Shown: positions 26,013-63,752 of the stretch, in pieces
Layout: the number at the start of each line of letters is the position of its first letter
How positions within the stretch are numbered: the stretch's first letter is position 1
Origin: Eledone cirrhosa
Lineage: Eukaryota
Length of the DNA stretch: 64,000 nucleotides
Reading direction: 5' to 3'
Assembly: GCA_964016885.1 (NCBI GenBank)
Contig: OZ024760.1
Coordinates: 21,390,001 to 21,454,000, forward strand
The notes under the pieces: model-generated
What the model was told of the DNA's origin: nothing
Databases searched by the model: none
What the model saw: the letters and a program-made list of their open reading frames with translations, nothing else
Made by a program: the position numbers and the translations under genes

Positions 26013-26904
26013 CACCACCCCCTCCCCTAGTCTATGATAGATTTGGCGGATTCCGCCCTTTATAGCAGTTGGCTTAGACCCCGGATACTTGCCCCCTTTT
26101 TCCGACCGCTCCTACTATTCTCTGTGCCCTCTATATTTCTTAGTGGCACTTATGCCTTATTTTTTCGTTTCAGTATTTCTTGCTTCGCTTTTCTTCTGGG
26201 CGGGGTGGATTCTGAATTTATTTTTCCGTATTCTACCTTTATTTCGTACGAACTTTCATGTAGCTTGTTTTAGATCTTTTAGAGTTAGCATTAGTATATA
26301 TTTTTCTCGGGACTCAGAATTATTATCTCGTACAAGTTCACTTTGCTGCACTGGGTCGTTGCTGGCCCGGGATGGAAACCTTTATTGTTTATTTCGTGGT
26401 AGTCTCTTTAGTATTTTGGCCCCTTTTGTTGACCCGTCACCGTATCATTTACGTACTTATACCTCTTAAAAGGGTCCTTGCCTATTCCGTCCCACCAAGT
26501 TCTTTTACTTATTTCCTTATTTATTTATTTATTTATTTATTTACTTCTTTCTTTCTTTATTTTATTCTCGCCTAACAATAGCCTGACACCTAGGTCGTAG
26601 AATTTAATTTACTTTACTTTTTTCTTTACACTTATTTGCTTTTCTTCACTTTCAGTATTTTTTCTTTCCTATTTCTACCCCCCATTGTTCTACCTACCGT
26701 TCCGACTTCCTCCCCCTCCCCCTCCCCTGTATCTTCTTTGACCTCATGCCCAGCTGTAGCTGGCACTACCAACGCTTGATTGGGTCTACTCCACCCCCTC
26801 CCCTCTTTCTCCTACTGGCAGGTTTAGCCACCATCTCCCCTACTAATTTGCAACCACAGAATTACTACTGATTTTTGACAATCACTTTGACCATATATGG
26901 AATT

Positions 26905-27055: not shown

Positions 27056-27399
27056 TAAAGTTTTCTGTTGGAGCCATACGGCTTCCTTTTTGGGATTTTA
27101 GTCCAACATATGTAAGTATATATTCTCCTGTATTCATCCCCACACACCCACCTACTGTATGTGCGTATGTGCGTGTGTATAAGTTAATCTCCCAGTGAGC
27201 CATAGATATTGATATAGTTGTTTATATTCCTAACTGACATGTTTAAATGGATATCAGTTACTGTAGCTATATAACATTTAGTATGTGTGTGTCTATATAA
27301 CATTTAGTATGTGTGTGTCTGTGGGTTGTGACATCTTAGAAAAGTATTTATATATATACCTCTCTATCCTGTTACAGCCCCCCCCCCATCATATATATA

Positions 27400-28920
27400 T
27401 AGAGGTAGTTAAAGTTAGTAATAGAATAATTAAGCTTAGGTTAGTTGTAGGCAATAGACTGCTGACAATCATCTCTGCCTATGCTCCCCAGGCAGGCTTA
27501 GGTAAAGAAGAGAAAGACGGCTTTTACGAGCAACTTTTACAGACAGCCTCAATGACAGAGGACGGAGACATTGTTATGCTAGCAGGAGACTTCAATGGAC
27601 ATGTTGGACAGCTCCAGGATGGATACACTGGGGTACATGGTGGGCACGGTTACGGCTCAAAAAATGAAGAACGAGTGAGACTTTTTGAATTTTGTGATGC
27701 AAATGCACTAACCATTTGCAACGCTAACTTCCAGAAGCTTACCAACCACCTAATAACCTACAAATCAGGCGAGCACATAATCCAGATTGACTTCCTGCTA
27801 GTTAGACGAGACAGACGGATGGTGTCAAATACTAAGGCTTACCCCACAGCATAGGTTAGTTGTTAGTAAGCAAGAGAAAGAATGAGATATACAGGAAGGT
27901 GTGGAAAAGAAATGTCTGGAAGCTAAAAGACCTTTCATTAACATATAAATTTAGCAAAGCCCTTCAAGATGCGTACAACGAAAAAGAAGACGATTTAGAG
28001 TTGTATGACATACATGGTAACTGGAATTTCTTGCGTGACAACTTACTGCAGGCTACTGAAGAAACTTGTGGTTGGGGCAGAGCTTCAACTAGACAGAGAG
28101 TGACCTGGTGGTGGAACAGCAAGGTAGATAGGGCCATTAGAGACAAAAGATTAGAGACATGCGGTATTCCGCATTGCAAAGCAGTGTGTCAGTACAAATC
28201 AGGATGTTGTTGGAGATAAGTGTGTCCGGAATGATGCAGGTGTATTTAGTGTCACGAATGATCAAAAAAAGGAGGCCTGGAAATGTCATTATGAGAGACT
28301 GATGAATGTGGAGAACGAATGGGACAGAGAGGAATTTCCCCCAGTAGACCCGACAGAGGGACCAGCTATTGAGATTGGCGAATATAGGGTACAAGAGGCA
28401 ATTAAGGAAATGAAGAATGGTAAGGCTGCTGGGCTGTCGGGGATAGTTGCTGAGATGCTGAAGGCTTCAGGAGAAGTAGGCACTAAACTAGTTGCACACA
28501 TTAATCAAGCTATGTATGGTGGTGTCATACCCAAATACTGGTGCAGCAGTATTCTCATAAATTGTTACAAAGGTAAAGGGGATGCTCTAGAGAGGAGCAA
28601 TTATAGGGGCATAAAGCTGATGGATCGGGTTATGAAAGTGGCAGAGAGAATAAGCGCAATTGATTAGAGAAAGGGTCAATTTAGATGAGATGCAGTTTGG
28701 TTTTGTGCCTCGGAAAAGTACAACGGATGCCCTCTTCTTAGTGAGGCAACTACAACAGAGGTTCTTAGAGAAGAATAAGCCACTATACTTACCTTTTGTT
28801 GACCTAGAGAAGGCCTTTGATAGGGTACCCCGATCTGTCATCTGGTGGTCCCTAAGGAAACTATGTGTAGAGGAATGGCTTGTGAGGACAGTGCAAGCTA
28901 TGTACAGGGGTGCTGTCAGG
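27400..28920 (+). mobile_element. RTE-clade LINE pseudo-ORF (APE endonuclease plus N-terminal RT)
   Basis: IISAYAPQ, LAGDFNGHVG, IDFLLVRR, TWWWN, KNGKAAG, YKGKGD...NYRGIKL, QFGFVP, FVDLEKAFDRVPR; frameshifted. Confidence 0.92.
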
Positions 28921-29289
28921 GGAGGGCACTGACAACACTCCAGATGTCATGTAGTGAGGGGAGGGCACTGACAACACTCCAGATGTCATGTGAGGGGAGG
29001 GCACTGACAACACTCCAGATGTCTGTGAGGGCTTGACAACACTCTAGATGCCAGGTAGCAGTGGGGGAAGGGCACTGACAACACTCCAGATGTCAACCCC
29101 ACCTCCACCAGTCTTAGTGTTTGTTTGATCTGCCACTCTGATGCTCTGGTCAAGCTGTGGACCTATATGAAGGGGAACCACACCTGTTTACAAAGCACAA
29201 AAGCTGGAGCTGTTTGGGAGGGCAATAGCTCTTAATAAGAACTGCCTAGGACCTTGACACCCTGTCAAACCCATACCGGTATGTAAAAC

Positions 29290-42240: not shown

Positions 42241-42337
42241 TGGAAATAATTTGTCCATTTGTTTTATCTTCTTTCCTTCTGTCATGGCAGTTATTGACCA
42301 GTTGACCAGTTGACCAGTTGACCAGTTGACCAAGAAG

Positions 42338-42445
42338 ATGAGATTTCAGATGTCTAAGAGAGCGGTCAGACTTGGCCTGTCACTAGGTGGCGCCACCTTA
42401 TTTGCTGCCTACCTCATACCAAAGTACCAACAAGTTACTAAACCG
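42338..42445 (+). CDS. GPD2: Mitochondrial glycerol-3-phosphate dehydrogenase, coding exon 1 (targeting peptide)
   Basis: MRFQMSKRAVRLGLSLGGATLFAAYLIPKYQQVTKP; upstream acceptor at 42289-42290, GTCAGT donor, phase 0. Confidence 0.75.
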
Positions 42446-44006: not shown

Positions 44007-44169
44007 GCTGTATCCAGGTTGTCTGCTGCTGAGCCAGTACAGAAACTATCAAATGTCTTACCACTTCGAAAGGATATATTAACCTCCCTAAAAAATGATG
44101 AATTTGATGTTTTAGTGATTGGAGGGGGAGCCACAGGTACTGGTGTGGCCCTCGACTCAGTCAGCAGAG
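44007..44169 (+). CDS. GPD2: GPD2 coding exon 2 (FAD-binding motif)
   Basis: EFDVLVIGGGATGTGVALDSVSRG; AG/GT boundaries. Confidence 0.95.
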
Positions 44170-44879
44170 GTCAGTAACCAGCTGGTGCTTGTTTTTTCTT
44201 TTTCTTTTTGATTACTCTTTTACGTGATCCAGCCGACTGGCTGAGGCCATGCTGCGCACCGCCATTGAATTAATTGTACAACCTCAGCTAGAGATTGAGC
44301 CTCTAACTACACCACGTAAGGTACAAGATCCAACACTCTTACCAACTCAGCCATCAGCACATGTACTGTTTAGTTTAGGTGTTTGTATGTGGAGGGGCAC
44401 GGGAATGAGAGATTTTATTATGTCTTGGTAGAAGTTATCATTCCTGACATCATCATCATCATCATCATCATCATTTAACGTCTGCTTTCCCTGCTACCAA
44501 GGGTTGGAAGGGTCTTCATAGACTAAATCAGTAGTGACCTCCCAGACTGGCCAATGGGTCTGTATCCCACTTACGTACAGTCATTATAGAGTGCAGAGAA
44601 GAAGTTGTATCTTTTGACACAAACTGACAGGTCCTCCTAATCCCTTGTTTGGAAAGCTTTCTATGACTGGATGCCCTTCCTATCATTACCACTCTGCAGT
44701 GTGTACTGGGTGTATTTATTGTTTAGATCACCAATGCCAGGGAGGCTGTCATGACCTTGACCCAACTAAAGGGTCCTCCCTTTGTTTGGCAAGCTTGTCC
44801 TGATATACTTTGAATAAACTATCCATTGTCAATGTACCACTGCCATACCTGCCTCACAGCTACACCTGTACCTCTTGGC

Positions 44880-45760
44880 CATACCTGTGTCTCAGTTATA
44901 GCCATACCTGTGCCATAACCATACCTGTGCCATAGTCACACCTGTGCCACAGCCACACCTGTGCCATAGCCACAACTGTGCCATAGTCACACCTGTGCCA
45001 TAACCATACCTGTGCCATAGCCATACCTGTGCCATAGCCACACCTGTGCCACATCCACACCTGTGCCACAGCCACACCTGTGCCACAGCCACACCTGTGC
45101 CACAGCCACACCTGTGCCACAGCCACACCTGTGCCATAGTCACACCTGTGCCACAGCCACACCTGTTCCACAGCCACACCTGTGCCATAGAAACACCTGT
45201 GCCATAGCCACACCTGTGCCATAGCCACACCTGTGCCATAGAAACACCTGTGCCATAGCCACACCTGTGCCATAGCCACACCTGTGCCACAGCCATACCT
45301 GTGCCACAGCCACACCTGTGCCACAGCCACACCTGTGCCACAGCCACACCTGTGCCACAGCCACACCTGTGCCACAACCACACCTGTGCCATAGTCACAC
45401 CTGTTCCACAGCCACACCTGTGCCACATCCACACCTGTGCCACAGCCACACCTGTGCCATAGCCACACCTGTGCCACAGCCACACCTGTGTCATAGCCAC
45501 ACCTGTGCCACAGCCACACCTGTCATAGCCACACCTGTGTCATAGCCACACCTGTGCCATAGCCACACCTGTGCCATAGCCACACCTGTGCCACAGCCAC
45601 ACCTGTGCCATATCCACAACTGTGCCATAGCCACACCTGTGCCATAGCCACACCTGTGCCACAGCCACACCTGTGCCACAGCCACACCTGTGTCACAGCC
45701 ACACCTGCGCCATAGTCACACCTATGTCATAGCCACATATGCCATAACCACATGTGCCTC
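44880..45760. repeat. 17-bp minisatellite
   Basis: gccacacctgtgccata. Confidence 0.95.
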
Positions 45761-45879
45761 AAGTGGTTGATAAAATAAAGTACCAGTAATGCACTGGGGT
45801 AATTGCTGGCCTTGTGCCAAAAAGTAGAAACAATTGTTAATCTGAAAGCAATTCTTTTTATCACCTTTCACACACTCAG

Positions 45880-46004
45880 GTTTGAAAACTGCGATGATTG
45901 AAAAATATGACTTTGCATCTGGGACCAGCAGCCGAAGTACGAAGCTGATTCATGGAGGTGTACGTTACCTACAGAAGGCTGTCTTCAATTTAGACTATGA
46001 CCAG
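45880..46004 (+). CDS. GPD2: GPD2 coding exon 3
   Basis: [41 protein letters not shown]. Confidence 0.97.
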
Positions 46005-46009
46005 GTAAA

Positions 46010-47012
46010 TATATATATTCATTAGATTATGAACAGGTAAATATATATATATATATATATATACTGTTTCCTGGAGGTGTACATCACCTGTGGAAAGCTA
46101 TCTTTAATTTAGATTATGATTAGGAAAATGTAGATTCTCTTTAAATTATGTACAGGTAAATATATATATTCATTAGATTATGAACAGGTAAATATATATA
46201 TATATATATACTGTTTCCTGGAGGTGTACGTCACCTGTGGAAAGCTATCTTTAATTTAGATTATGATTAGGAAAATGTAGATTCTCTTTAAATTATGTAC
46301 AGGTAAATATATATATTCATGAGATTACGAACAGGTAAATATATATATATATATATATATACTGTTTCCTGGAGGTGTACGTCACCTGTGGAAAGCTATC
46401 TTTAATTTAGATTATGATTAGGAAAATGTAGATTCTCTTTAAATTATGTACAGGTAAATATATATATTCATGAGATTACGAACAGGTAAATATATATATA
46501 TATATATACTGTTTCCTGGAGGTGTACGTCACCTGTGGAAAGCTATCTTTAATTTAGATTATGATTAGGAAAATGTAGATTCTCTTTAAATTATGTACAG
46601 GTAAATATATATATTCATGAGATTACGAACAGGTAAATATATATATATATACTGTTTCCTGGAGCTGTACGTCACCTGTGGAAAGCTATCTTTAATTTAG
46701 ATTATGATTAGGAAAATGTAGATTCTCTTTAAATTATGTACAGGTAAATATATATATTCATTAGATTATGAACAGGTAAATATGTCAGTCCAAACTGTAA
46801 TGTGGCTGGTAATAGGAAGGGCATCTAGCCAGAAAGACCCTGCCAAAAATATTATTCTCACTAATTGCATATACATCCAAGCATGGAAAAATGGACACAA
46901 AAACAACAATGATGATTGTTTAATGGAGATGCATGTTATCTGCAGAAGGCTGCCTTCAATTAAGATTATGAACAGGTAATTACTTATACACATTAGATTA
47001 GAAACAGGTAAA
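46010..47012 (+). repeat. ~147-bp x5 tandem repeat plus relics derived from exon 3 end and donor
   Basis: Unit tggaggtgtacgtcacctgtggaaagctatctttaatttagattatga aligns to exon tggaggtgtacgttacctacagaaggctgtcttcaatttagactatga. Confidence 0.9.
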
Positions 47013-48159
47013 GATATATACTGTATATACTCAGATATGAATTTAGTGAACCATGAGGTCTGAAAGGTTGGCACCTGCTGAATTAGAGTATAGCTTTTGT
47101 TTTACAGCAATGTAATGAGTTTGCATTACATTAAGTTTCAACAACGGTGGGGGGGGGGGGGGGGGGGGTGGATTGGCAGTATCGGTAGAGGGTCGGACGC
47201 CATGCTTTGACGCATAGAGTTACGGCCCTTGCCATTCTGAGTTCAAACCCCGCCGAGGTTGACTTTGCCTTTCATCCTTACGGGGGGTCGATAAAATAAA
47301 GTACCAGTAATACACTGGGTATTTGCTGGCCTCGTGCCAAAAGTAGAAACAATTACATTAAGTTTCAACAAGTTTCTTTAACCTTTGTTTACTTCCAGCC
47401 ACTCATATGCTGGGAGTAGTTTGAAAAGAGAACTTTGTACAGGGATTCATAGAGTAGAAAGGGGGGGGGGGAGACAGCAAGTGAGAGTGAGGGGAGGTAG
47501 AGCGAGAAAAAGAGAGAGTGAGAGCAATAAAATAAAATAAAAAGTAAGATTGAAAGAAAAAAATATGTGTGTGTGTGTATGCGTGCATCGGTGTGAGATT
47601 TTTATCTATATATAAATTTGAGTGACATCCGTCTGTCTGTCTAACACTATGTGTTTGTGTGAATGCATGTGTGTTAAAGGAAGGAAGGGGATGGTGAAAA
47701 AAACTATAGCAAAATAGTGGCTGGTGTTCCATTTACTATGTTGTGTGTGAGTATATGTTTGTGTAAATGCACGTGTGTGTGTGTGTTTGTGTGATTGTAT
47801 GTGTATTTGTGTGAATGTATCTGTGTTTGTATTTTTGTGTGTCTCTGTGTGTTTATATTTATATACTCATACATATAAATGTATGCATGTGCACATACAC
47901 ATACACACACACACATACAAATATGCATCAGCATGTTGAAAAAATTCTAGTGTATTAAAAAGTTCAAATTATAAAAAGTTTGTTGGAAATATTTTCAAGG
48001 AAATGCATAAATAACACCAGTGACAATGTAGTTAATGTAGAAAAACTGCTTCATTGTGAGATACTCACTCCAGATATTTTAGCACCTTATTTATGTGGAA
48101 TTTGAAGTTGGTGAAAATAGTCAAAATATTGACTCCAAGTGTAATCCCCCCCCCTCCCT

Positions 48160-48510
48160 GTTGGATGTGCAATGTCAATGTGCGTGGACCAAGCATGGAC
48201 GAGTTGAGAAAGAAACTGGGTATAAGAGGGATAAGTTGTGGTGTGCAGGAGAGAAGGCTGAGCTGGTATGGGCATGTGATGCGCATGGTGGATGACCGCT
48301 GTGTAAAGAAGTGCCAAGAAATCTCAGTAGAAGGAAGACGCAGAAGAGGTAGACCACGTAAAACATGAGCGGAGGTGGTGAGAGCTGACCTCAGATCGCT
48401 GAAACTCACCGAGGAGATGATGAAGGACCGTAACAAGTGGAGAGATGCTGTGCTGAATAGGACCCGTCCAAGCAGGGAAAAGCGGATGTAAAATGATGAT
48501 GATGATGATA
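48160..48510 (+). mobile_element. RTE LINE 3' end with (GAT)n tail
   Basis: RRLSWYGHVMRM...EGRRRRGRPRKT; tail gcagggaaaagcggatgtaaaatgatgat. Confidence 0.85.
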
Positions 48511-49221
48511 TATATATAACAGAGTGTTGTAGTTTGCTTGAAGCATTGTGGAATAGGAAATACAAATTTAAATAAGTTTAAAAGCTCTATAATGCGTACA
48601 AGAATAAAGGTTCCAAGGTAATAGGTTTTATAGAGGAAAGAATAAGGGCGATAGAATTTTACCTTAGCAAATTTAATTATCTTAAATATTTTGGGTTTAA
48701 AAGCCCATTCTCAAGAGAGGATCCATGTGTAGGTGTTCAAATAGCAATCGGAGAAGAGTTGTTGTTTGGCTGGCAGATTTAATTTAGATGTAAAGAAAAG
48801 ATGTTAAAATTTAGAGCTTCATCATCATCATCATCACCAATTTACGTCCGTTCTTCCACGCTAGCATGGGTTAGACGGGTTGTCCTGTTGTGGGCAGTGT
48901 CTGGTCGGCTGACCTTGTCTTGCTCATATGGGAACTGATTCTGGCTTGATTTCTACAGCTGGATGCCCTTCCTAACACCAACCTCATTTACAGTGAGTGC
49001 TGGGTGCTTTTTTTCCGTGATGCCTACACGTCCACTTTACAGTGTGGTCTGAGTGCTTTTTTGCTTATATCTATCTCTATATATATATATATATAAACAT
49101 AGGTGTTGGTGGTGATGGTGTTGGGTTGTTTTTGGTAGTGGTGTTGATGGTGGTGATGTTGTTGTTGTTGTTGATGGTGTTGGTGTTAAGTATTTCTGTG
49201 ATAGTCTGTTTCTATTTTCAG

Positions 49222-49319
49222 TATAAAATGGTTAAGGAGGCATTAATTGAGAGATCAAACCTTATACAAATAGCGCCACACTTAGCTTATGCTTTCCCCA
49301 TCATGTTGCCCCTCTATAG
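49222..49319 (+). CDS. GPD2: GPD2 coding exon 4
   Basis: YKMVKEALIERSNLIQIAPHLAYAFPIMLPLY; GTAAGT donor. Confidence 0.97.
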
Positions 49320-49499
49320 GTAAGTTTGGAACTTTTCTTAAACCCCCATCTCTGCCCCCAACCTTACTTCACCTCTCTCTCCTCCTCCTCCTTCTCCTCC
49401 TAAAGATATCTGACCAATTCTCATTTTTGAATATCACTTTTGGTTATATCCTTTCTTTATTTTTTAATATTCTTATATTCTTAATTTACATTCTTTTAT

Positions 49500-49870
49500 T
49501 CTTTCTCTATATTCTATCATTCCTTCTCTATATTCTATCATTCCTTCTCTATATTATATCATTCCTTCTATATATTATATCATTCCTTCTCTATATTCTA
49601 TCATTCCTTCTCTATATTCTACCATTCCTTCTCTATATTTTATCATTCCTTCTCTATATTATATCATTCCTTCTATATATTCTATCATTCCTTCTCTATA
49701 TTTTATCATTCCTTCTCTATATTCTATCATTCCTTCTCTATATTCTATCATTCCTTCTCTATATTATATCATTCCTTCTCTATATTCTATCATTCCTTCT
49801 CTATATTCTATCATTCCTTCTCTATATTCTATCATTCCTTCTCTATATTCTATCATTCCTTCTCTATACT
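49500..49870. repeat. 21-bp minisatellite
   Basis: tatattctatcattccttctc. Confidence 0.95.
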
Positions 49871-49976
49871 TTCAGTCTCTCTGTTATTCTTTATTAATGT
49901 CTTCCATGAATTCTGAATAAAATATTTTAGAACATTTCAATAAAATATTTACCCCTTTTATTACAATATTTCTACA

Positions 49977-50310
49977 CTGCATGGCTTAGTGGTTAGAGCA
50001 TTGGCCTTGCAATCGAAAGATTGTGAGTTCAATTCTCAGACCGGCTGATGTGTTGTTTCCTTGAGCAAGACACTTTATTTCACATTGCTCCAGTTTACTC
50101 AGCTGTAGAAATGAGATGATAGGGACTGGGGTCCCTATCATTCCACTGCAAAGTGGACGTGTAGGTGCCACGGCCAAAAAGCACCCAGCACTCACTGTAA
50201 ATGAGGTTGGTGTTAGGAAGGGCATCCAGCTGTAGAAATCAAGCCAGAATCAGTTCCCGTCCCACCCTTGCAAGCAGGGAAAAGCGGACGTAAAATGATG
50301 ATGATGATGG
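49977..50310 (+). mobile_element. SINE family A, full length
   Basis: tRNA head to (GAT)n tail. Confidence 0.9.
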
Positions 50311-51159
50311 CCTGTAGTATTGAAAACATTTTGAAATTAATGAAGAATTTAAAGGGATTTAGTAATAGAACTAATTTTCTCATTATTAAATGGATGTTTG
50401 GAACAGAACTTAACAACGGTTCTTAAATAAAATTATGATGGAAATTGTTTTAGATAAACATTTTAAAATAAAAACTTTAAAATAAAAAAAAAGCTTTGTA
50501 TCATAGAACCAGGGTTGGTGTCAGATGATTTGGTATCATAGAACCAGAGGTGGTATCTTAAAACCATAAGTGGTGTCTGGTGGTTTGGTATCATAGAACC
50601 AGGGGTAATTTCAGGTGATTTGGTATCTTAAAACCAGGGGTAATTTCAGGTGATTTGATATGGTGAAGGTTAAATTTAGATGATGGTTTAAATCTCTCAG
50701 GTAATAGTTAGGAGTTAAGATAGATTAATGAAATGTATTGCAGTACTAATCTTATTAACTATCTCGTTACATATCGGTATAATTTTCATTCTTTAATTAG
50801 TAACATTAGCTTTGTGTTTTTTATATATTTTTTATTTTTCTATTTATTTATTTACTTGTTAACCTCTTCATTATGTTATTATTATCGGTGGAGGATCGGA
50901 CGCCATGCTTTGCAGCATAGAGTTACGGCCCTTTATGATCTGAGTTCAAATCCCGCCAAGCTTAACTTCGCCTTTCATTCTTACAGGGTTGATAAAATAA
51001 AATACCAGTCACGCACTGGGGTCGATTTAATCGACTTTCCCCTCCCCCAAAATTGCTAGATATTTGCTGTTATTTCTCTTCCATCTGGTTGATAGGTATA
51101 GAAACATTATTATTACATATATCTATAGTGCCTTTTGCATCCCCCCCCCCCCCCCCAAA

Positions 51160-51940
51160 CTGAGGCCATCATCTTCCCTGCAGATGAAACGACTTTGGCT
51201 TTCTTTGGAGCAGGTGAGGAGGGGTGTTTCCACTGCATAGATTGTCTCTTTGATTCTTTGTCTCTGGCTCAAAGTGATGAACCCAACACTCATCCTGGTT
51301 AAGTTCAGGGAAACCAGCTGGATCTACTTCAAACAATATCAGATTTCCCCATGATGTGATCAATCTGATGTGCTTTTCATCAGGTGTCAGAAGATGTGGC
51401 ACCCACCAATCAGAAACCTTTGTCATGTCAAGTTCATTGTGCAGAATATTCTCAACTCTCTCACGGGATATGCTAATAGCAATGTTTATTTGATTTATAG
51501 TCAATCACCTGTCACCCATCACCATGTGGTGAACATGGTCAATGTTTTCCTTGGTGGTGGCAGTTGCAGGATGTCCAGACCTTGGGTTATCTTCAAGACT
51601 CTCCCTTTCCCTCCTGAATTCAGCTGCCCACTTTTGCACTGTTGATAAAGCTGGAGTGTCACCCCACTAATGTAGCAACCATGTCAACATGAATGTCCTA
51701 GGGGGGGCTAAACCCTTTTCCTGCAATTAATTGATAACACCACAATGCCAAATTTTGTCCAGTTTCAAGAGAAGCTGCTACTAGTTACTTTTGAAGTCTT
51801 CTTTGAACAGTCAGATGTCAGTTTACTCGGAAAAACAATGCAGTTATTAAGAAGAGTTGATATGAATGCATGCAAGATTTCACAGCTCTAGCATCATTGC
51901 TTCAAAGTCAGCTTATGAACCTTTCAGCAAACCCTCGTAT
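51160..51940 (-). mobile_element. mariner transposon relic (5' TIR and N-terminal transposase)
   Basis: WVPHLLT and DECWVHHFEPETK motifs; terminus TA-CGAGGGTTTGCTGAAAGGTTC. Confidence 0.85.
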
Positions 51941-51951
51941 ATATATTTATA

Positions 51952-52105
51952 TGAGTCTCAGGGTCCCGACGACTGAGCTCTTGCCGTTTCAACAGATAGT
52001 TTCAGCCGTCAGGGGGTCCTGACTTATTCATATAACCATACTCTACTACCCCAAGTATTGAGTACTCTGGTGAGTAATGGTCTAACTGCTGAATCCTTCT
52101 TGATT
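51952..52105. mobile_element. Diverged short fold-back relative of the 24624-27013 PLE family
   Basis: Shares ctctactaccccaagtattgagtact; inverted head contains gactgagctcttgccgtttc. Confidence 0.6.
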
Positions 52106-52446
52106 TACACACACACACAGTGAATTGGCAGAGTTATTAAGACGTCGGATAGAATGCTTTACGGTATTCATACCACCTCATTGCATGCCCTGAGTTCAAA
52201 TCCCGCTGTGGTCAACTTTGCCTTTCACCCTTTCGAGGTCAATAAAATAGGTACCAGTCCAGTACTGAGGTTAATTCTTCCTCTATTGAAAAATCGGCTG
52301 TGTTCAGACCTGAGAGGGATGGGCTCCGCCAGGTTTTAAAGTGCCCCAGACATGCTGTATGACAGTGCCTCCACGACTCAACAAGGAGTTGTAGGATCTT
52401 CATCCTTATATATATACTATCAAATGACTTCTTTGTTGTTTTTCAG

Positions 52447-52610
52447 GTGGTGGCAAGTACCTTACTATTGGGCCGGTATTAAAATGTATGATTTTGTGGC
52501 TGGGAAACAGAAATTAAAAAGCAGTTATTTTCTTTCAAAGTCAAAGGCTTTGGAATTATTCCCAATGCTGAAGAAAGATGAATTGGTTGGTGCCCTGGTT
52601 TATTATGATG
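52447..52610 (+). CDS. GPD2: GPD2 coding exon 5
   Basis: WWQVPYYWAGIKMYDFVAGKQKLKSSYFLSKSKALELFPMLKKDELVGALVYYD. Confidence 0.97.
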
Positions 52611-53240
52611 GTAAGTTTGGTTGGTTAGTGATTGGTTTATTGTGATGGTAAGTTTGGTTGGTTGGTGATTGGTTTATTGTGATGGTAAGTTTGGTTGGTT
52701 AGTGATTGGTTTATTGTGATGGTAAGTTTGGTTGGTTAGTGATTGGTTTATTGTGATGGTAAGTTTGGTTGGTTAGTGATTGGTTTATTGTGATGGTAAG
52801 TTTGGTTGGTTGGTGATTGGTTTATTGTGATGGTAAGTTTGGTTGGTTGGTGATTGGTTTATTGTGATGGTAAGTTTGGTTGGTTGGTGATTGGTTTATT
52901 GTGATGGTAAGTTTGGTTGGTTGGTGATTGGTTTATTGTGATGGTAAGTTTGGTTGGTTGGTGATTGGTTTATTGTGATGGTAAGTTTGGTTGGTTGGTG
53001 ATTGGTTTATTGTGATGGTAAGTTTGGTTGGTTAGTGATTGGTTTATTGTGATGGTAAGTTTGGTTGGTTAGTGATTGGTTTATTGTGATGGTCAGTTTG
53101 GTTGGTTAGTGATTGGTTTATTGTGATGGTAAGTTTGGTTGGTTAGTGATTGGTTTATTGTGATGGTAAGTTTGGTTGGTTAGTGATTGGTTTATTGTGA
53201 TGGTAAGTTTGGATAGTTGGTCTATGATGGTAAGTTTGAT
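52611..53240 (+). repeat. 37-bp x16 tandem repeat derived from exon 5 end plus donor
   Basis: gtaagtttggttggtt(a/g)gtgattggtttattgtgatg versus exon end ttggttggtgccctggtttattatgatg|gtaagt. Confidence 0.95.
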
Positions 53241-53872
53241 TGGTTGGTTGGTTTATTATGATGTTAAGTTTGCTTGGTTAGTGATTGATTTATTATGATG
53301 GTATGTTTGGATGGTTTATGTTTTATTGTAATGATATGGTTGGTTTGTTGATGGTTTGTTTGGTTGGTTGGTTTATTATGGTAAGTTTGGTTGGTTAGTG
53401 ATTGGTTTATTATGATGGTATCTTTGGTACATTGTAATGGTATGGTTGGTTGATGGTTGGTATATTGTAATGGTATGGTTGATTGATGCTTGGTATATTG
53501 TAATGGTGTGCTATGGTTGGTTTATTGTGAGGGTATCTTTGGTATATTATAATGGTATGGTTGATTGATGGCTGGTACATTGTAATGGTATGGTTGGTTG
53601 ATGGTTGGTATATTGTAATGGTATGCTATGGTTGATGGTTGGTTTATTGTGTGGTATCTTTGGTATATTGTAATGGTATGGTTGGTTGGTTGGTTGGTTG
53701 ATTTTAATGTGATGGAAAACTATATGCATACGCACAAGTATATCTGTACACACATCACACATATGTATACATACGCTCATATCTATGTGCTCATGCCCAC
53801 AATCACACACACACAAACACAGACACACACATAAGGAACAAAAGCTAAAAGAGCTCTAATATTGTGTTGCAG

Positions 53873-53943
53873 GTCAACATTAAGATGTTAGGATGAACAT
53901 TGTCCTGACAATGGCTGCTATCAGGATGGGAGGTTCACTGACG
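53873..53943 (+). pseudogene. Partial duplicate (pseudo-exon) of GPD2 exon 6 with intact acceptor
   Basis: tgtgttgcag|GT CAA CAT TAA GAT GTT AGG ATG AAC ATT GTC...; GAA changed to TAA. Confidence 0.9.
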
Positions 53944-53984
53944 CACACACACACACACCACACACACAACACACACACATACAA

Positions 53985-54080
<96 letters not shown>

Positions 54081-54148
54081 GTGCGTTCAGAGAAACATAC
54101 AGACACAGACACACTTGAGGAAGTATAAGCTCTAATTTTGTGTTGCAG

Positions 54149-54310
54149 GTCAACACGAAGATGCTAGGATGAACATTGTCTTGGCAATGACTGCTATTAG
54201 GATGGGAGGTTCATTGACCAACCGGGTGGAAGCCAAAGAGTTGGTGAAGGAGAAAGATGAAAATGGTAAAGAGAAGATTTGTGGAGCAGTTGTAAGAGAC
54301 GGTCTTACAG
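54149..54310 (+). CDS. GPD2: GPD2 coding exon 6
   Basis: QHEDARMNIVLAMTAIRMGGSLTNRVEAKELVKEKDENGKEKICGAVVRDGLT. Confidence 0.96.
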
Positions 54311-54988
54311 GTTAGTAACCATGGTGATGTGGCTATTGTTTGGCTACTGGTCAGTCATCGTCATTTAACATCTATTTTCCACACTTGCAACGATTAGACA
54401 GGTTGCTACATTATGAGACAAGTCAGGTCGTCCAGAGACCGTGTCATGCTGATATGGTTGTGTATTTTCGCTTGGTTTCTATGGCTGGATGTCCTTCCTA
54501 ATGGACTAGGTATTTTTTGTTGTGTCACCAGCAAGTCCACCTTACAGGTTGGACTGGGCGCTTTTTGTCATGTTACCAGCACGACTACCTTACAGGGTGG
54601 ACTGGCTGTTTTTTTTTTTTGTATCACTAGCATGTCCACCTAACAGGATGGACTGGGTGCTTTTTGTTGTCACCAAAATGACCACCTAACAGAGTGGACT
54701 GGCCACTTTTTGTCATGTCACCAACACGACCACCTTACAGGTAGACAGTACTTTTACTTGAGTCACCAACATGACCACCTTACATGGTGGACTAGGTGCT
54801 TTCTTGTCATGTCACCAGCACGACCACCTTACATGGTGGACTGGGTACCTTTGTTTTATGGCACCAGATCAGCATACAGGGTGAACTTAGTGCTTTTTAT
54901 CTTGGCAATGAAAACCATTATCATCATCATCATCTATAACTGTATTATACTGCTATATTAATATTCTTGTTTTTTTGTTATTCCCCAG

Positions 54989-55133
54989 GTGAAGAATGGA
55001 CTGTGAAAGCTCGTTGTGTCATCAATGCAACAGGGCCCTACACCGATCATATCAGACATATGTCAAATGCAAAGAACAAAAATATCTGCAAACCCAGTTC
55101 AGGGGTTCATATCATTTTACCTGATTACTATAG
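54989..55133 (+). CDS. GPD2: GPD2 coding exon 7
   Basis: EEWTVKARCVINATGPYTDHIRHMSNAKNKNICKPSSGVHIILPDYY. Confidence 0.97.
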
Positions 55134-55738
55134 GTAAATATTTAGGGGGTTGACTGAACTTTAAGGGTCCCTTCTATTTTATCAGTTACCTTCATTGAGT
55201 CAAAGAAGCAAATAAATTATGGAGTTATGGTTATGTAAGGTATATATAGGCAGTCAGGTGTTGTGTGGTATATATAGACACAGGTGATGTATTGTATATA
55301 TGTTTGTGTGTATATATATATATCAGACAGTCCTATGCGAGCAAGACAACCACTCTTGCCTCAAGTGGGAAAACCCCCGTCCAAACCCATGCAAGCGTGG
55401 AACACGGACGCTAAACCTGATGATGATGATGATATATATATATAGACAGTTGATGTGGTGTTTACATGTATATATTTATATATATATATATATATATATA
55501 TCAATGATATTAATAAATGGAAACTATATTTAATCCTTTAAAGAAGAAATCCTAAAGAATTCCAATACTAATTTTTTGCAATTTTTTGCAAAAAGGAGCT
55601 ATTTATAAGCAAAGGGATATAGTTTCCATTTATTAATATCATTGATATTATACTCCAGAAAACTTGTCGAGTGCTTCGAATCTGTTATAAATATATTTGT
55701 TGAATTACCAACAAATTAAATATCCCTTTGCTTATATG

Positions 55739-55774
<36 letters not shown>

Positions 55775-55776
<2 letters not shown>

Positions 55777-55985
55777 GGAAGAAATGTGGTAAGGAACCAG
55801 GTGGACCATAACGCACCAAAGTACTCAATACTTGGGGTAGTAGAGTGGGTAATAGGAACGAGTAGGACCCCGATGGCTGAGCTCAAGCCATTTCGACGGC
55901 TAATTCTGGACTAAAAAAATTTTTAGTCCAGAATTAGCCGTCGAAACGGCTTGAGCTCAGCCGTCGGGGTCCTACTCGTTCCTAT
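55775..55985. mobile_element. Short fold-back copy of the 24624-27013 PLE family
   Basis: Same terminal sequence; spacer-less palindrome 55851-55985; (TA)n flanks. Confidence 0.8.
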
Positions 55986-57327
55986 ATATATATATATACA
56001 CATGTCAATTACCTTCTTTCGATGTTTATATATATATATATATATATATAAATATATGTACTAATGTCTATGTTTATATTTATAGAGTTGTTAATATGTG
56101 TGTTGTGTACGTTTGGTGTGTGTGTGTGTGTACATCTATATGTATGTAACGGAAAATCGCTCATATAGAATAGCCAGGTTGGTGTGTATGATAACAGAGG
56201 CTAGGAAATCGCCATTTCTCATCCCACCCGCCCGCCCCATGTCTATCACCTTCCAATATGCATGCCTGGCGCTGTACACTAACCACTCGTGCACATAGCA
56301 TGTTAAACCAAGTTCCGCTCAGAGCAGACAGGGGGCAGACAGAGGCTTTGTAAGCTGTGGAGTAGGCAACCAATCTAGGAGAGCTACCACTCCAAATAAA
56401 TTAGTGCGGGATAGAGAAGGCCCTAAGACCAGTAAGATGACTTCCCTAGTGCTTCTGGCACAAATAAAAGCACTGAGTCCATGCTGTAACATGGAGGTAT
56501 TGGTAATAGCATTCAGCTATTAAAAACCATACAAAATTATGGAGTGGAGAAGGCCCCTGAGTCCAGCAAGACAACCTCCCTAGTGCTGGTGGCATGAATA
56601 AAACCACCCAGTCCATGCTGTAAAGTGGAGCTGGTGTTAAGAAAGGCATCCAACCAGTGTATTAATGCCAAAACAAATACGAGCACCAGAAAAAATTTAT
56701 ATAGCAATAACTGTGTTAACAGCAATATCACTAACCATGTTAGGGCTGCGCACTGTAGTGGGGTGGCTAGTGTGGCCATGTGCGAGAACTGTACTTCTCT
56801 GTACTGTTTCAGAAAGGAGGGATAAACATGCCAGTCTATGTTTAGAATCCTGAGCAACGCCGGACCATTCTGCAGACTAAGAAAGAGAGAGAGATCGCCT
56901 AATGCGGGCCTCGGGCATTGAAAATTTGAAATATTCTTTGCTCAAAACACTCACATGGCCATAAGTATTACATGTGTAAAATTTGAAAAAAATCGGTTTG
57001 GTGGTTCTCGAGTTTTAGGGAGACAGGCAGACAGACATTCTCTGTTTTAGATATATATAATATATATATATAAAAACCTGAGAAGAATTGCGTGCTGTGT
57101 GGTTGCACATGGGTTACATATGAAAAAAATAGTCCTTCATCAGTGATTTTCCAACCTTCATTGGTATATATATATATATTTCTGTCTTGAATTTTTTTTT
57201 TTTTTAATTGAGTTTGAATTATTTTCCCATATCTTACGTTAAATATTTTCCATCTTGACGTTATAGTCACTTATATATTATGAAATACTGTTGGCTTCTT
57301 GCTCACATTAATTTCTCTATTTTCATT

Positions 57328-57367
<40 letters not shown>

Positions 57368-57382
57368 TATATATATAATATA

Positions 57383-57414
<32 letters not shown>

Positions 57415-57467
57415 TATAATATAATATATATATATATATATAATATAATATATATTTATAATATAAT

Positions 57468-57866
57468 AGTAATAATAATAAATGTGAAGATTAAAATGCA
57501 AAGAGGGCTCGATAAGGATAAATATATATCAAATATATAAGAACCCTAGAGCAAATATTTATAAAAATAACATATTAAAATTTAAGTAAAGAATCGCTGC
57601 TTTCACCCTTAATGGGATCTTCTGAAACTAAAAAAATCAATCTGTGAACGCAGAAGTAAATATTTCGAAAAACGTTGCAACCGAAGGAAAACAGGAAGAT
57701 GATACGTCCTCACAAACCAAAGTATCGTCTTCCTGTTTTCCATCGGTTGCAACATTTTTCGAAATATTTACTTCTGCATTCACAGATTGATTTTTTAAAA
57801 TTAGTTTCAGAAGATCCCATTAAGGGTGAAAGCAGCGATTCTTTGCTTAAACTTTAATCTGTTATT
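57468..57866. mobile_element. Fold-back copy of the CAGAAGA-hammerhead family (motifs at 57579-57629 minus and 57803-57853 plus)
   Basis: Inverted arms around 57705-57722; adjacent (TA)n. Confidence 0.65.
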
Positions 57867-58631
57867 GTGGAACATATGAAATTGTTGTGGGATTGGGGGA
57901 TGATATTGTGGGACTGGTGATGTTGTTTGACTGTTGATATTGCTATTGAGATTGTTGTGAGACTGATGATGATATTCTGGGGTTGGGGATGCTATTGTGG
58001 GACTAGTAATGTTGTGGGGCTGGTGATGTTGTTATGGGACTGGTGATGTTGTTATGGGACTGGTGATGTTGTTGTGGGACTAGTGATGTGGGGCTGGTGA
58101 TGTTGTTGTGGGACTGTTGATGTTGTTTGGCTGTTGATATTGTTATGGGACAAATAATGTTGTTGTGGGACAGGTGATGTAGTTGTGAGACAAGTGATGT
58201 TGTTGTGGGACTGGTATTGTTGTGGAACAAGTACAATGTTGAGATATGTTTCACTTCTATGTCTCCCCTCTCTCTCTCTCCCCCCTTCTCTCTCTCTTCT
58301 CTTCTTTAATTTTTCACCCTACTATCTGCCATAACTCCTCTTCCTTTCTTTACAATATCTACTCTCTCTTTCTCTCACCCCCCCCCCCTCTCATCACCCT
58401 CTTCTCTGCCATAACTCACCCTTCTCCTCTTACTTTCACTACAATGATTACTCTTTCTCTCTCACTTCTCCCACTCTCTCCCTCTCTCTATCACATTTCC
58501 CTCTCTCATTTCTAACCCTCCTCCTCCTTCTCCTCTCTTTCTATAGTATGTCTCTCCCCTACCCTTCTGTCCACCTCTCCCTCTTTTCAATATAATTCCA
58601 CATCTGTGTCTGTCTTATTTTTATTTTCAAG

Positions 58632-58717
58632 CCCCTCAAACATGGGTTTGCTAGATCCATCTACCAGTGATGGACGAGTAATATTTTTCCTACCTTGGCA
58701 GAATGTCACTCTAGCAG
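58632..58717 (+). CDS. GPD2: GPD2 coding exon 8
   Basis: PSNMGLLDPSTSDGRVIFFLPWQNVTLA; AAG acceptor. Confidence 0.96.
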
Positions 58718-58879
58718 GTACAGTGCTGCCTATTATAATTCCTCTTCCTCTTCCTCTTCCTCACCACCATCATCAACATCATCGTTACCATCATCATCAA
58801 CATCATCACTTTGAACATCATCATTATTCAAAAAGAAAGTTATATCTATGATGCCACGCCATGCTGAACCACCCCAACA

Positions 58880-59780
58880 ACACCACACTATCCCACACAT
58901 TACACTATACCACACTACACTATACCACACTACACTATACCACACTACACTACACTATACCACACCACACCACACTACACTACACTATACCACACTACAC
59001 TATACCACACTACACTATCCCACACATTACACTATACCACACTACACTACACTATACCACACTACACTATACTATACCACACTACACTACACTAAACCAC
59101 ACAACACTACACTATACCACACAACACTATCCCACACAACATTAAACTATACCACACGACACTACACTATACCACACTACACTACACTATACCACACAAC
59201 ACTACACTATACCACACTACACTATACTATACCACACTACACTACACTAAACCACACAACACTACACTATACCACACAACACTATACCACACTACACTAT
59301 ACTATACCACACTACACTACACTATACCACACTACACTACACTATACCACACAACACTACACTATACCACACTACACTATACTATACCACACTACACTAC
59401 ACTATACCACACTACACTACACTATACCACACTACACTACACTATACCACACTACACAACACTATACCACACTACACAACACTATACCACACTACACTAT
59501 ACCACACAACACTACACTATACCACACTACACTACACCACACCACACTACACTACACTATACCACACTACACTACACTATACCACACTACACAACACTAT
59601 ACCACACTACACTATACTATACCACACTACACTACACTATACCACACTACACAACACTATACCACACCATACTACACTATACCACACTACACTACACTAT
59701 ACCACACTACACTACACTATACCACACAACACTACACCACACTACACTACACCACCACAACACTACACTATGCCATACAA
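58880..59780. repeat. (CACTA)n-derived pentamer tract
   Basis: Direct reading. Confidence 0.95.
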
Positions 59781-59909
59781 CACTTCATTACGCTAATAAT
59801 CACAGCTGTTTCCCACTTAATTTCAATGTGTTTGACATGTTTATGTTGTTTTAGGTATAATGTGCTCTGTAGGTACCATATATATGTCCTGTAGGTATCA
59901 CAAATTTAA

Positions 59910-61082
59910 TGTTTCCTACATGTTTGCACTGTCCTGCATGTTTACACTGTGTTCTACACCGCCCTACATATTTATAATATCCTACATGTCCACACTGTCT
60001 CACATGTTTGCACTGCCCTCCATGTTTATGCTCACCTACATGTTTACACTGCCCTTCATGATTATAATACCCTACATGTTCACATTGTCCCATATGTTTG
60101 CACTCTCCTACATGTCAACACTCTTACGCGGCCACACTCTCCTACATGTCCACACTCTCTTACCTATTTATACTCTCCTACATGTCTACACTTTCATACA
60201 TGTCTACACTCTCCTACATGTCTACACTCTCCTACATGTCCACACTCTCTTACGTGACTACACTCTCCTACATGTCCACACTCTCCTACATGTCTACACT
60301 CTCTTACCTATTTACACTCTCATACATGTCCACACTCTCCTACATGTCTACACTCTCCTACATGTCCACACTCTCTTACCTATTTATACTCTCCTACATG
60401 TCCACACTCTCCTACATGTCTACACTCTCCTACATGTCCACACTCTCTTACCTATTTACACTCTCCTACATGTCCACACTCTCCTACATGTCTACACTCT
60501 CATACATGTCCACACTCTCCTACATGTCCACACTCTCTTACCTATTTACACTCTCCTACATGTCCACACTCTCCTACATGTCTACACTCTCATACATGTC
60601 CACACTCTCCTACATGTCCACACTCTCTTACCTATTTATACTCTTCTACATGTCCACACTCTCATACATGTCAACACTCTCCTACATGTCCACACTGTCT
60701 TACCTATTTACACTCTCCTACATGTTCACACTCTCCTACATGTCTACACTCTCCTACATGTCCACACTCTCCTACATGTCCACACTCTCATACATGTCCA
60801 CACTCTCCTACATGTCCACACTCTCTTACCTATTTATACTCTCCTACATGTCTACACTCTCCTACATGTCCACACTCTCCTACCTATTTATACTCTCCTA
60901 CATGTCCACACTATCTTACCTATTTATACTCTCCTACATGTCTACACGCTCCTACATGTTCACTCTCCTACATGTCCACACTCTCTTACCTATTTATACT
61001 CTCCTACATGTCTACACTCTCCTACATGTCCACACTCTCCTACATGTCCACACTCTCCTACATGTCTACACTCTCCTACATG
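59910..61082. repeat. 18-bp minisatellite abutting the exon 9 acceptor
   Basis: tccacactctcctacatg. Confidence 0.95.
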
Positions 61083-61086
61083 ACAG

Positions 61087-61194
61087 GTACCACAGACAAT
61101 GAGTGTGAGGTGTCAGATTTCCCACAACCAACTGAAAAGGAAATCCAGTTTATATTAAGAGAGATTAGGAATTATCTTAATCCTGATGTCAGAG
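61087..61194 (+). CDS. GPD2: GPD2 coding exon 9
   Basis: TTDNECEVSDFPQPTEKEIQFILREIRNYLNPDVR. Confidence 0.96.
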
Positions 61195-61206
61195 GTAGGT
61201 GGAATT

Positions 61207-61271
<65 letters not shown>

Positions 61272-61309
61272 CCTGTCTTTCTTTGTCTGTTTGGCTCTAT
61301 GTATCTATC

Positions 61310-63370
61310 AGTCTGTTTGTCTATCTAACTATCTGAGCTATCTATCTGTCTGTTTGTCTATCTAACTATCTGACCTATCTATCTGTCTGTTTGTCTATCT
61401 AACTATCTGAGCTATCTATCTGTCTGTTTGTCTATCTAACTATCTGACCTATCTATCTGTCTGTTTGTCTATCTAACTATCTGAGCTATCTATCTGTCTG
61501 TTTATCTATCTAACTATCTAACTATCTATCTGTATGTTTGTCTATCTAACTATCTGAGCTATCTATCTGTCTGTTTGTCTATCTAACTATCTGAGCTATC
61601 TATCTGTCTGTTTGTCTATCTAACTATCTGAGCTATCTATCTGTCTGTTTGTCTATCTAACTATCTGACCTATCTATCTGTCTGTTTGTCTATCTAACTA
61701 TCTGACCTATCTATCTGTCTGTTTGTCTATCTAACTATCTGAACTATCTATCTGTCTGTTTATCTATCTAACTATCTAACTATCTATCTGTCTGTTTGTC
61801 TATCTAACTATCTGAGCTATCTATCTGTCTGTTTGTCTATCTAACTATCTGAGCTATCTATCTGTCTGTTTGTCTATCTAACTATCTGACCTATCTATCT
61901 GTCTGTTTGTCTATCTAACTATCTGAGCTATCTATCTGTCTGTTTGTCTATCTAACTATCTGAGCTATCTATCAGTCTGTTTATCTATCTAACTATCTGA
62001 GCTATCTATCTGTCTGTTTGTCTATCTAACTATCTGAGCTATCTATCTGTCTGTTTGTCTATCTAACTATCTGAGCTATCTATCTGTCTGTTTGTCTATC
62101 TAACTATCTGAGCTATCTATCTGTCTGTTTGTCTATCTAACTATCTGAGCTATCTATCTGTCTGTTTGTCTATCTAACTATCTATCTGTCTGTTTGTCTA
62201 TCTAACTATCTATCTGTCTGTTTGTCTATCTAACTATCTGAGCTATCTATCTGTCTGTTTGTCTATCTAACTATCTGAGCTATCTATCTGTCTGTTTATC
62301 TATCTAACTATCTGAGCTATCTATCTGTCTGTTTGTCTATCTAACTATCTGAGCTATCTATCTGTCTGTTTATCTATCTAACTATCTGAGCTATCTATCT
62401 GTCTGTTTATCTATCTGAGCTATCTATCTGTCTGTTTGTCTATCTAACTATCTGAGCTATCTATCTGTCTGTTTGTCTATCTAACTATCTGAGCTATCTA
62501 TCTGTCTGTTTGTCTATCTAACTATCTGAGCTATCTATCTGTCTGTTTATCTATCTAACTATCTGAGCTATCTATCTGTCTGTTTATCTATCTAACTATC
62601 TATCTGTCTGTTTGTCTATCTAACTATCTGAGCTATCTATCTGTCTGTTTGTCTATCTAACTATCTGAGCTATCTATCTGTCTGTTTGTCTATCTAACTA
62701 TCTGAGCTATCTATCTGTCTGTTTATAAGGGAGCACCCCTTCTCTGTGCTCCCGAGGAAAAGGGTTGCACACTTTTTTTCGGGGGTGTGTGCGACCTCCC
62801 AAGGCGCCTCCTCTCTATTGAGGACTTTATTATAAATTTTATTTTTTGTTATATTTTATTTTATTTTTATATATTGTTAATTGCCTCCTCCTTATTGAGG
62901 ACGCCTTGTTTTGTAAACTCCCCCCATTGTACTTGTCCCACTTTTGATGCCCTGGTGGCAAATAAAAGAAACATATCTATCTAACTATCTGAGCTATCTA
63001 TCTGTCTGTTTATTTATCTAACTATCTGAGCTATCTATCTGTCTGTTTGTCTATCTAACTATCTATCTGTCTGTTTGTCTATCTAACTATCTGAGCTATC
63101 TATCTGTCTGTTTATTTATCTAACTATCTGAGCTATCTATCTGTCTGTTTGTCTATCTAACTATCTATCTGTCTGTTTATCTATTTAACTATCTAACTAT
63201 CTATCTGTCTGTTTATCTATCTAACTATCTGACCTATCTATCTGTCTGTTTATCTACCTAACTATCTGAGCTATCTATCTTTCGATTTATTTGTCTATCT
63301 AACTATCTGAGCTATCTATCTGTCTGTTTGTCTATCTAACTATCTGAGCTATTTATCTATTTATCTGAGT
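61310..63370. repeat. 37-bp TATC/TGTC-based minisatellite
   Basis: ctatctaactatctgagctatctatctgtctgtttgt. Confidence 0.95.
62725..62973 (+). mobile_element. Tx1-like LINE 3' UTR inserted in the TATC satellite
   Basis: 3' end resembles 19200-19272. Confidence 0.6.
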
Positions 63371-63435
63371 TAGCTGTCTGTCTGCCTGCCTGAAAAAGGT
63401 CAAATTCCTTTAACTGTTTCTTTGCTGTTTGACAG

Positions 63436-63752
63436 TCCGCCGTGGTGATGTCCTGTCAGCCTGGAGCGGGATCCGTCCTCTTGTCAGAGACCCAAACAAA
63501 TCTGATACACAATCACTGGCTCGGAATCACATCATTGAAGTGTCGGATGATAACCTGATCACAATTGCTGGAGGAAAGTGGACAACATACCGACATATGG
63601 CTGAAGAGACCATTGATAAAGCAATTGCAGTATGTTGCCTGGAACCCGCTGTTCCAACATGTCAGACAAAAGGTCTGTTATTGGATGGAGCTCATGGATG
63701 GTCCCCAACACTGTTTATACGACTGGTGCAGGACTTTGGCTTAGACAATGAA
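63436..63752 (+). CDS. GPD2: GPD2 coding exon 10 (gene continues beyond window)
   Basis: RRGDVLSAWSGIRPLV...ITIAGGKWTTYRHMAEETID...LVQDFGLDNE; GTAAGG donor. Confidence 0.97.

What the first reader, a model, noticed from the sequence alone, without database searches (positions are those of the whole stretch)
44007..61194. Splice-junction 'echo' duplications at four of ten exons suggest a junction-biased duplication process
Seen: exon 3 donor, exon 5 donor, exon 6 acceptor and, more weakly, exon 9 acceptor are each locally duplicated into the intron. Inference: either duplications initiate preferentially at junctions, or genome-wide tandem duplication is so frequent that only events leaving one intact exon survive. 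Either process would supply raw material for intron expansion and new exons.
Basis: inference. Interest (0 to 1): 0.75.

Follow-up and report, generated by a model that had tools for sequence, protein, structure and literature searches.

The report
Splice-junction "mirage" repeats in octopod GPD2
Three exon ends of an ordinary metabolic gene, likely from an octopus relative, are copied into the neighbouring introns, a repeat type already known from lancelets and humans, and across 814 other exon ends in the same genome such copies were rarer than in nearby intron DNA, so they likely reflect a repeat-rich region rather than a process aimed at splice sites.

Summary
The gene is mitochondrial glycerol-3-phosphate dehydrogenase (GPD2): 15 exons, 638/720 residues identical to Argonauta. 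Three echoes are real: exon 3 donor (147-bp array plus an older copy), exon 5 donor (37-bp array) and exon 6 acceptor (one copy). The exon 9 echo is no better than chance. A transcript-like contig splices at the authentic sites; use of the nearest echo site would bring a premature stop. Echoes occur at 5/762 junctions (0.66%), against 1.75% of single-copy intron positions (ratio 0.37, bootstrap 0.08-0.82) and 5.6% at 40-140 nt into introns. Junctions are depleted, not enriched. GPD2 (3/28) exceeds other junctions (p=0.002) but fits its own local rate (6.3%, P=0.26) in a region with four times the sample's minisatellite cover. These are 'mirage' or F7-type junction minisatellites, a known kind. 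The scan noted the same thing before in this genome and in an urchin. A mild 1.5-2x excess 40-140 nt from exons remains unexplained.

The parts
42338..42445 (+).
   Evidence: tblastn with Argonauta GPD2; part of the 720-codon frame
44007..44169 (+). GPD2 exon 2, no echo
   Evidence: on transcript-like contig
45880..46004 (+). GPD2 exon 3; its donor is the master copy
46018..46783 (+). Exon 3 donor mirage: 147-bp x5.3 array; each unit holds three junction-derived pieces (one about 66 nt with a dead GT, two short with live GT); 11 pseudo-donors identical to the authentic 9-mer
46917..47012 (+). Separate older copy of exon 3 end plus its short donor duplicate (52/63 and 16/20 identical)
   Evidence: covered by a DNA-like contig without differences
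49222..49319 (+). GPD2 exon 4, no echo
52447..52610 (+). GPD2 exon 5; its donor is the master copy
52617..53709 (+). Exon 5 donor mirage: 16 near-identical 37-bp units, then 15 older diverged pieces; 17 pseudo-donors identical to the authentic 9-mer
53809..53942 (+). Exon 6 acceptor echo: single copy of intron end plus 70 nt of exon, 276 nt upstream, stop codon at third codon, no donor seen, followed by a (CA)n tract
54149..54310 (+). GPD2 exon 6; its acceptor is the master copy
54989..55133 (+). GPD2 exon 7, no echo
58632..58717 (+). GPD2 exon 8, no echo
   Evidence: its start is the loose end of the transcript-like contig
59914..61082 (+). 18-bp minisatellite abutting the exon 9 acceptor; derivation from the junction not shown
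61087..61194 (+). GPD2 exon 9
63436..63752 (+). GPD2 exon 10, no echo

Best explanation
These are exon-intron boundary tandem repeats ('mirages') in the GPD2 gene that likely arose from ordinary, position-blind local duplication in an unusually repeat-rich region, and likely persist because the outer, intact splice site is still the one used. Shown: the copies, their homology to the exon ends, authentic splicing in one contig, a high local duplication rate, and depletion of such copies at junctions elsewhere in the genome. Inferred: birth by slippage or unequal exchange, later amplification like any minisatellite, removal by selection of duplications inside exons and of most that span junctions, and disposal of any mis-spliced RNA through the premature stops.
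For: Echo rate 5/762 at other junctions vs 159/9083 at single-copy intron positions (ratio 0.37, bootstrap 0.08-0.82) and vs 250/4461 at 40-140 nt (ratio 0.12, 0.02-0.25). 0 to 1 of about 760 at each of three offsets inside exons. Contig-matched expectation 13.5, observed 4. Same direction under four other probe shapes. GPD2 region: 39% minisatellite cover vs 9.8% in the sample, only 2 of 107 long segments as high; local rate 21/333, P(at least 3 of 28)=0.26. The ten junctions of exons 10 donor to 15 acceptor, nine of them beyond the window, show no echo. The intron share of the unit runs from about 6 to about 350 nt over the cases seen, with no clustering at the junction. One 2316-nt contig joins exons 2-3-4-5-6-7 at the authentic sites. 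Each nearest echo site would give an in-frame stop.
Against: GPD2 has far more echoes than other genes' junctions (3/28 vs 5/762, Fisher p=0.002), and more than junctions in the most repeat-rich stratum (1/96); this needs selection of the window after the fact, or a gene-specific factor. The local control is small (333 overlapping probes, few independent events). Subtracting inverted matches from the control (47 of 9083) narrows the ratio to about 0.5 (my arithmetic); with the longest probe the junction-to-deep-intron ratio was 0.94 on only 2/194 controls. Both GPD2 donor units end within about 6-15 nt of the junction. A 1.5-2x excess at 40-140 nt over 300-490 nt is not predicted by a strictly position-blind process.
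Confidence: 0.8

Rival explanations
1. Duplications start preferentially at or near splice junctions (for example through co-transcriptional stalling or R-loops), and purifying selection hides this at the junction itself, leaving a shoulder 40-140 nt into the intron.
For: Near/deep ratio 1.55 (1.12-2.24) for all DNA and about 2.0 (1.05-4.4) for single-copy DNA. GPD2 donor units end close to the junction.
Against: The junction itself is 3-8x depleted. In single-copy DNA the shoulder lies in the more diverged copies (ratios 2.0 and 3.3) and not in near-identical ones (0.87, wide interval 0.26-4.3), which fits older DNA near exons; in all DNA the three classes were alike (1.4-1.8). Interspersed-repeat share rises from 6% at 10 nt to 48% at 200 nt, so near-exon DNA is likely older. 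Low-complexity seeds peak at 40-60 nt.
Confidence: 0.12
2. The echoes are kept because they have a function, such as decoy U1 sites, unproductive splicing that tunes GPD2 level, or alternative exons in the making.
For: 11 and 17 pseudo-donors keep the authentic 9-mer. In human 6-16 and CBS the nearest pseudo-sites are used (PMC1557585 introduction).
Against: Only the authentic joints appear in the one transcript-like contig (contigs drop rare forms). All nearest echo sites give stops; the exon 6 copy has a stop and no donor; copies are 71-89% identical to the master, as expected from neutral decay, and identical donors follow from recent amplification of one unit.
Confidence: 0.05
3. Assembly artefact.
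For: Array lengths were not verified; no contig spans the arrays.
Against: Copies differ from the master by 11-29% with graded divergence; DNA-like contigs match parts of the exon 3 and exon 6 echoes without differences (possibly the same sample as the assembly).
Confidence: 0.03

Closest known systems
Amphioxus 'mirages' (Adh3, globins BflGb6 and BflGb9; PMC3087553, seven passages read)
   Same: Minisatellite-like tandem copies of an exon-intron boundary, at either 5' or 3' boundary, several in one lineage, many but not all with AG/GT, regular splicing undisturbed, homogeneous inner units and diverged outer ones; unit sizes 10-160 bp.
   Different: Here in a cephalopod; nested units (three junction pieces per 147-bp unit); one case is a single 276-nt duplication. 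The passages read give no background rate; here the rate was measured and is below background.
Human F7 IVS7 37-bp VNTR, and 6-16, CBS, LMNB2, PDGF donor minisatellites (PMC1557585, abstract and introduction read)
   Same: First unit spans the donor; identical pseudo-donors follow; the most upstream site is used (F7, LMNB2, PDGF).
   Different: F7 unit has 4 exon + 33 intron bases; the exon 5 unit here is mostly exon-derived. The shared 37-bp period is taken as coincidence; homology was not tested. Length polymorphism not tested here.
Internal tandem repeats at exon-intron boundaries in human segmental duplications (PMC2812944, 12 passages read)
   Same: Minisatellite units elongate introns at exon boundaries.
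   Different: There they change splicing in young paralogs; here a single-copy conserved gene shows no change in its coding frame.

Membership tests
Mirage / junction-spanning minisatellite | Tandem units that span an exon-intron boundary | tested here: met
   Exon 3 and exon 5 donors. Exon 6 is a single duplication. Exon 9 not met.
Mirage / junction-spanning minisatellite | Many copies keep the splice signal | tested here: met
   11 and 17 identical pseudo-donors; exon 6 copy keeps an acceptor scoring 9.2 vs 11.3
Mirage / junction-spanning minisatellite | Regular splicing at the authentic site | tested here: met
   One 2316-nt contig of run X4; rare forms would not show
Mirage / junction-spanning minisatellite | Homogenised inner units, diverged boundary units | tested here: met
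   16 near-identical 37-bp units then diverged ones; 147-bp units 95% alike beside an older separate copy
Mirage / junction-spanning minisatellite | Length polymorphism or somatic instability | not testable with these tools
   Only contigs of one study were available; none spans an array
   Ratio 0.37 (0.08-0.82) vs single-copy intron, 0.12 vs 40-140 nt
   Intron share about 6-350 nt over about a dozen cases; the two GPD2 donors are the shortest
Tandem exon duplication / intron gain by tandem duplication | Copy used as a new exon or new intron formed | tested here: not met
   No gap against Argonauta GPD2 over 720 residues; no echo in the contig
Mitochondrial GPD2 | Full-length identity to named GPD2 proteins | tested here: met
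   93% for exon 10; 638/720 overall

The most novel reading that the evidence does not exclude
Octopod introns have an exon-proximal mutational hot zone for local duplication, coupled to transcription or splicing, which selection erases at the junction but which shows as a 1.5-2x shoulder 40-140 nt inside introns and, in repeat-prone regions such as GPD2, as repeated mirages.
Probability: 0.12. Interest if true: 0.6.

Novelty: new member of a known kind. Interest (0 to 1): 0.2.

Why it matters
The repeats themselves are a known kind. The useful result is the background test: mirages look striking in single genes, but in this genome exon ends carry them less often than intron DNA carries comparable duplications, about 1 junction in 100-150. 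That argues against a splice-site-directed mechanism and gives a base rate for judging similar notes from this scan. Eight paper searches listed no such test in molluscs; the library lacks most subscription papers.

Tried and rejected
Exon 9 acceptor as an echo: rejected, not better than unrelated acceptors. Exon 6 copy as an alternative exon: rejected (stop codon, no donor). Raw all-DNA control (3.8%) overstates the background because of interspersed repeats (1.55% inverted), so single-copy controls were used. The first local control for GPD2 (about 8%) included the echo copies themselves and was redone without them (6.3%). No run was on record as RNA; X4 is taken as RNA only because its contig skips the introns. 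Lack of X4 cover over the echoes is not used as evidence. PMC10078293 (12 passages) did not bear on the question. PMC4974935 was seen only as a search listing. No supplements were read. Whether junction-derived duplications expand into long arrays more often than others was not tested (too few cases). No related octopod genome could be searched, so ages and orthologous echoes are unknown.

Full report
Gene. The window is G000:C21:21390001-21454000 of a 3.0-Gb genome. Exon 10 is 93% identical to Argonauta hians mitochondrial glycerol-3-phosphate dehydrogenase, so the animal is likely an octopod. Nine exons from 44007 to 63752 join with GT-AG ends into 456 codons without a stop. With exon 1 (42338-42445) and five exons beyond the window the frame is 720 codons, 638/720 identical to the Argonauta protein, without gaps.

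Observation. Exon 3 donor: 18 pieces at 78-85% identity to the exon end lie between 46018 and 47012. Sixteen fall in a 147-bp x5.3 array whose unit holds one long piece with a dead GT and two short pieces with live GT; a separate copy at 46917-47012 repeats the layout of the master. The likely order is a short donor duplication, then duplication of a longer block, then recent amplification of one unit (inference). Exon 5 donor: 16 near-identical 37-bp units, then 15 more diverged pieces to 53709. Exon 6 acceptor: one copy 276 nt upstream, 110/134 identical. Exon 9: score 10 against a threshold of 28; 33-211 of 408 unrelated acceptors do as well. Result: 3 of 28 junctions of the gene. Junction-derived DNA is about 2.1 of 16.1 kb of intron between exons 2 and 9.

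Splicing. No run was on record as RNA. One 2316-nt contig of run X4 joins exons 2, 3, 4, 5, 6 and 7 at the authentic sites, although 11 and 17 downstream donors have the same 9-mer as the authentic ones. Use of the nearest pseudo-donor, or of the echo acceptor, would include an in-frame stop in all three cases. Contigs drop rare forms, so low-level use is not excluded.

Background test. Eight Pfam searches of the own genome gave 570 matches. I used 548 (22 of 138 kinase rows, mostly long intron-poor or multi-stop matches, were left out); 527 had DNA (1.79 Mb in 286 segments). Boundaries were called with self-trained splice matrices. For 194 neighbouring exon pairs the phase-constrained call agreed with the single call at 193 donors and 191 acceptors. 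Of 858 junctions, 827 remained after removing duplicates and 814 were testable; about 182 family loci, 336 junctions pair-checked. Test: a 36-nt probe across the site must have a copy spanning the site within 1 kb on the intron side and none on the other side, which counts each array once. The same test was run on 34,417 intron positions outside GPD2. Junctions: 5/762 (0.66%). All intron DNA: 851/22,588 (3.8%), inverted matches 1.55%. Single-copy intron DNA: 159/9083 (1.75%), inverted 47; ratio 0.37, segment bootstrap 0.08-0.82; about 0.5 if inverted matches are subtracted. Contig-matched expectation 13.5 against 4 observed at the stricter threshold. By distance: 0-1 of about 760 inside exons, 0.66% at the junction, 1.6% at 10-30 nt, 5.6% at 40-140, 4.7% at 150-290, 3.6% at 300-490. 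Four other probe shapes gave junction/near ratios 0.23-0.33 and junction/deep ratios 0.35, 0.39, 0.48 and 0.94, the last on 2/194 controls. Only two junctions were set aside for an upstream match, and neither is an echo. A conserved master copy should make junction echoes easier to see, which would favour enrichment, yet none is found (inference).

Why GPD2 stands out. Its junction rate exceeds that of other genes (3/28 vs 5/762, p=0.002). But minisatellites cover 39% of the gene against 9.8% of the sample, and only 2 of 107 long segments are as dense. The background rate rises from 0.7% to 7.0% across density strata. The local rate without the echoes themselves is 21/333 (6.3%), giving P(at least 3 of 28)=0.26, or 0.10 for 18 junctions (the window holds 19). 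Against this, junctions in the densest stratum show 1/96, so GPD2 is still in the upper tail; the window was picked because it looked striking, and at 5/762 the chance of 3 or more in 28 is 0.0008 per gene, so some such genes are expected in a whole genome (inference).

Mechanism. Shown: copies, rates, authentic splicing in one contig. Inferred: position-blind local duplication; loss of events inside exons and of most events across junctions; survival when the outer site stays whole and is chosen first, as shown for human F7 (PMC1557585, abstract and introduction); then ordinary minisatellite turnover. The intron share of the units ranges from about 6 to 350 nt, with no clear clustering, though the two GPD2 donor units are the shortest.

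Residual. Positions 40-140 nt from exons have 1.55x (1.12-2.24) to 2.0x (1.05-4.4) the rate of those at 300-490 nt. Interspersed repeats rise from 6% to 48% over the first 200 nt, and in single-copy DNA the excess lies in more diverged copies, not near-identical ones, with wide intervals; in all DNA no such split is seen. Older DNA near exons is the likelier cause; a mutational hot zone is not excluded.

Known kinds. Tandem copies of exon-intron boundaries are named 'mirages' in amphioxus (PMC3087553, seven passages; the lead came from scan notes, the paper had been listed) and are known at human F7, 6-16, CBS, LMNB2 and PDGF. The scan noted the same kind in an urchin gene and at three other loci of this genome; I did not check those loci. 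Verdict: new member of a known kind; the junction-bias reading is not supported; interest 0.2.

Noticed in passing
L094 (G000:C18, exon near 34850504, minus strand): Aldehyde dehydrogenase donor mirage with an 82-nt unit (41 exon + 41 intron), at least five near-identical copies; the clearest of the other echoes.
   Followed up: partly
L079, L240, L355, L361 (G000:C22:18819156, C1:312966190, C1:322458984, C2:189922596): Further junction echoes in a kinesin (acceptor), a dynein heavy chain and two kinases (donors); about five more borderline cases appear with other probe shapes.
   Followed up: partly
814 junctions, 40-140 nt into introns: Local duplications are 1.5-2x more frequent here than at 300-490 nt; in single-copy DNA the excess is in more diverged copies.
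   Followed up: partly
window 42294-42332: 8-bp tandem repeat (4.9 copies) ending 5 nt before the likely GPD2 start codon.
   Followed up: no
window 54502-54866: Degenerate 48/49-bp tandem that belongs to a very abundant interspersed element rather than a local birth.
   Followed up: partly
window about 25142-25673 and 26041-26572: Large near-perfect inverted repeat: the same translations appear on opposite strands.
   Followed up: no
window about 27282-28946 and 48060-48480: Fragments that look like LINE endonuclease and reverse transcriptase frames (label recalled, not tested).
   Followed up: no
window 51172-51504 (minus strand): Decayed frame resembling a mariner transposase (motif recalled, not tested).
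   Followed up: no
G000:C19 about 6.70-6.72 Mb (+) and 6.80-6.81 Mb (-); C1636 vs C22: Near-identical dynein heavy chain and kinesin copies, either true duplications or uncollapsed haplotypes; removed as duplicates before counting.
   Followed up: no
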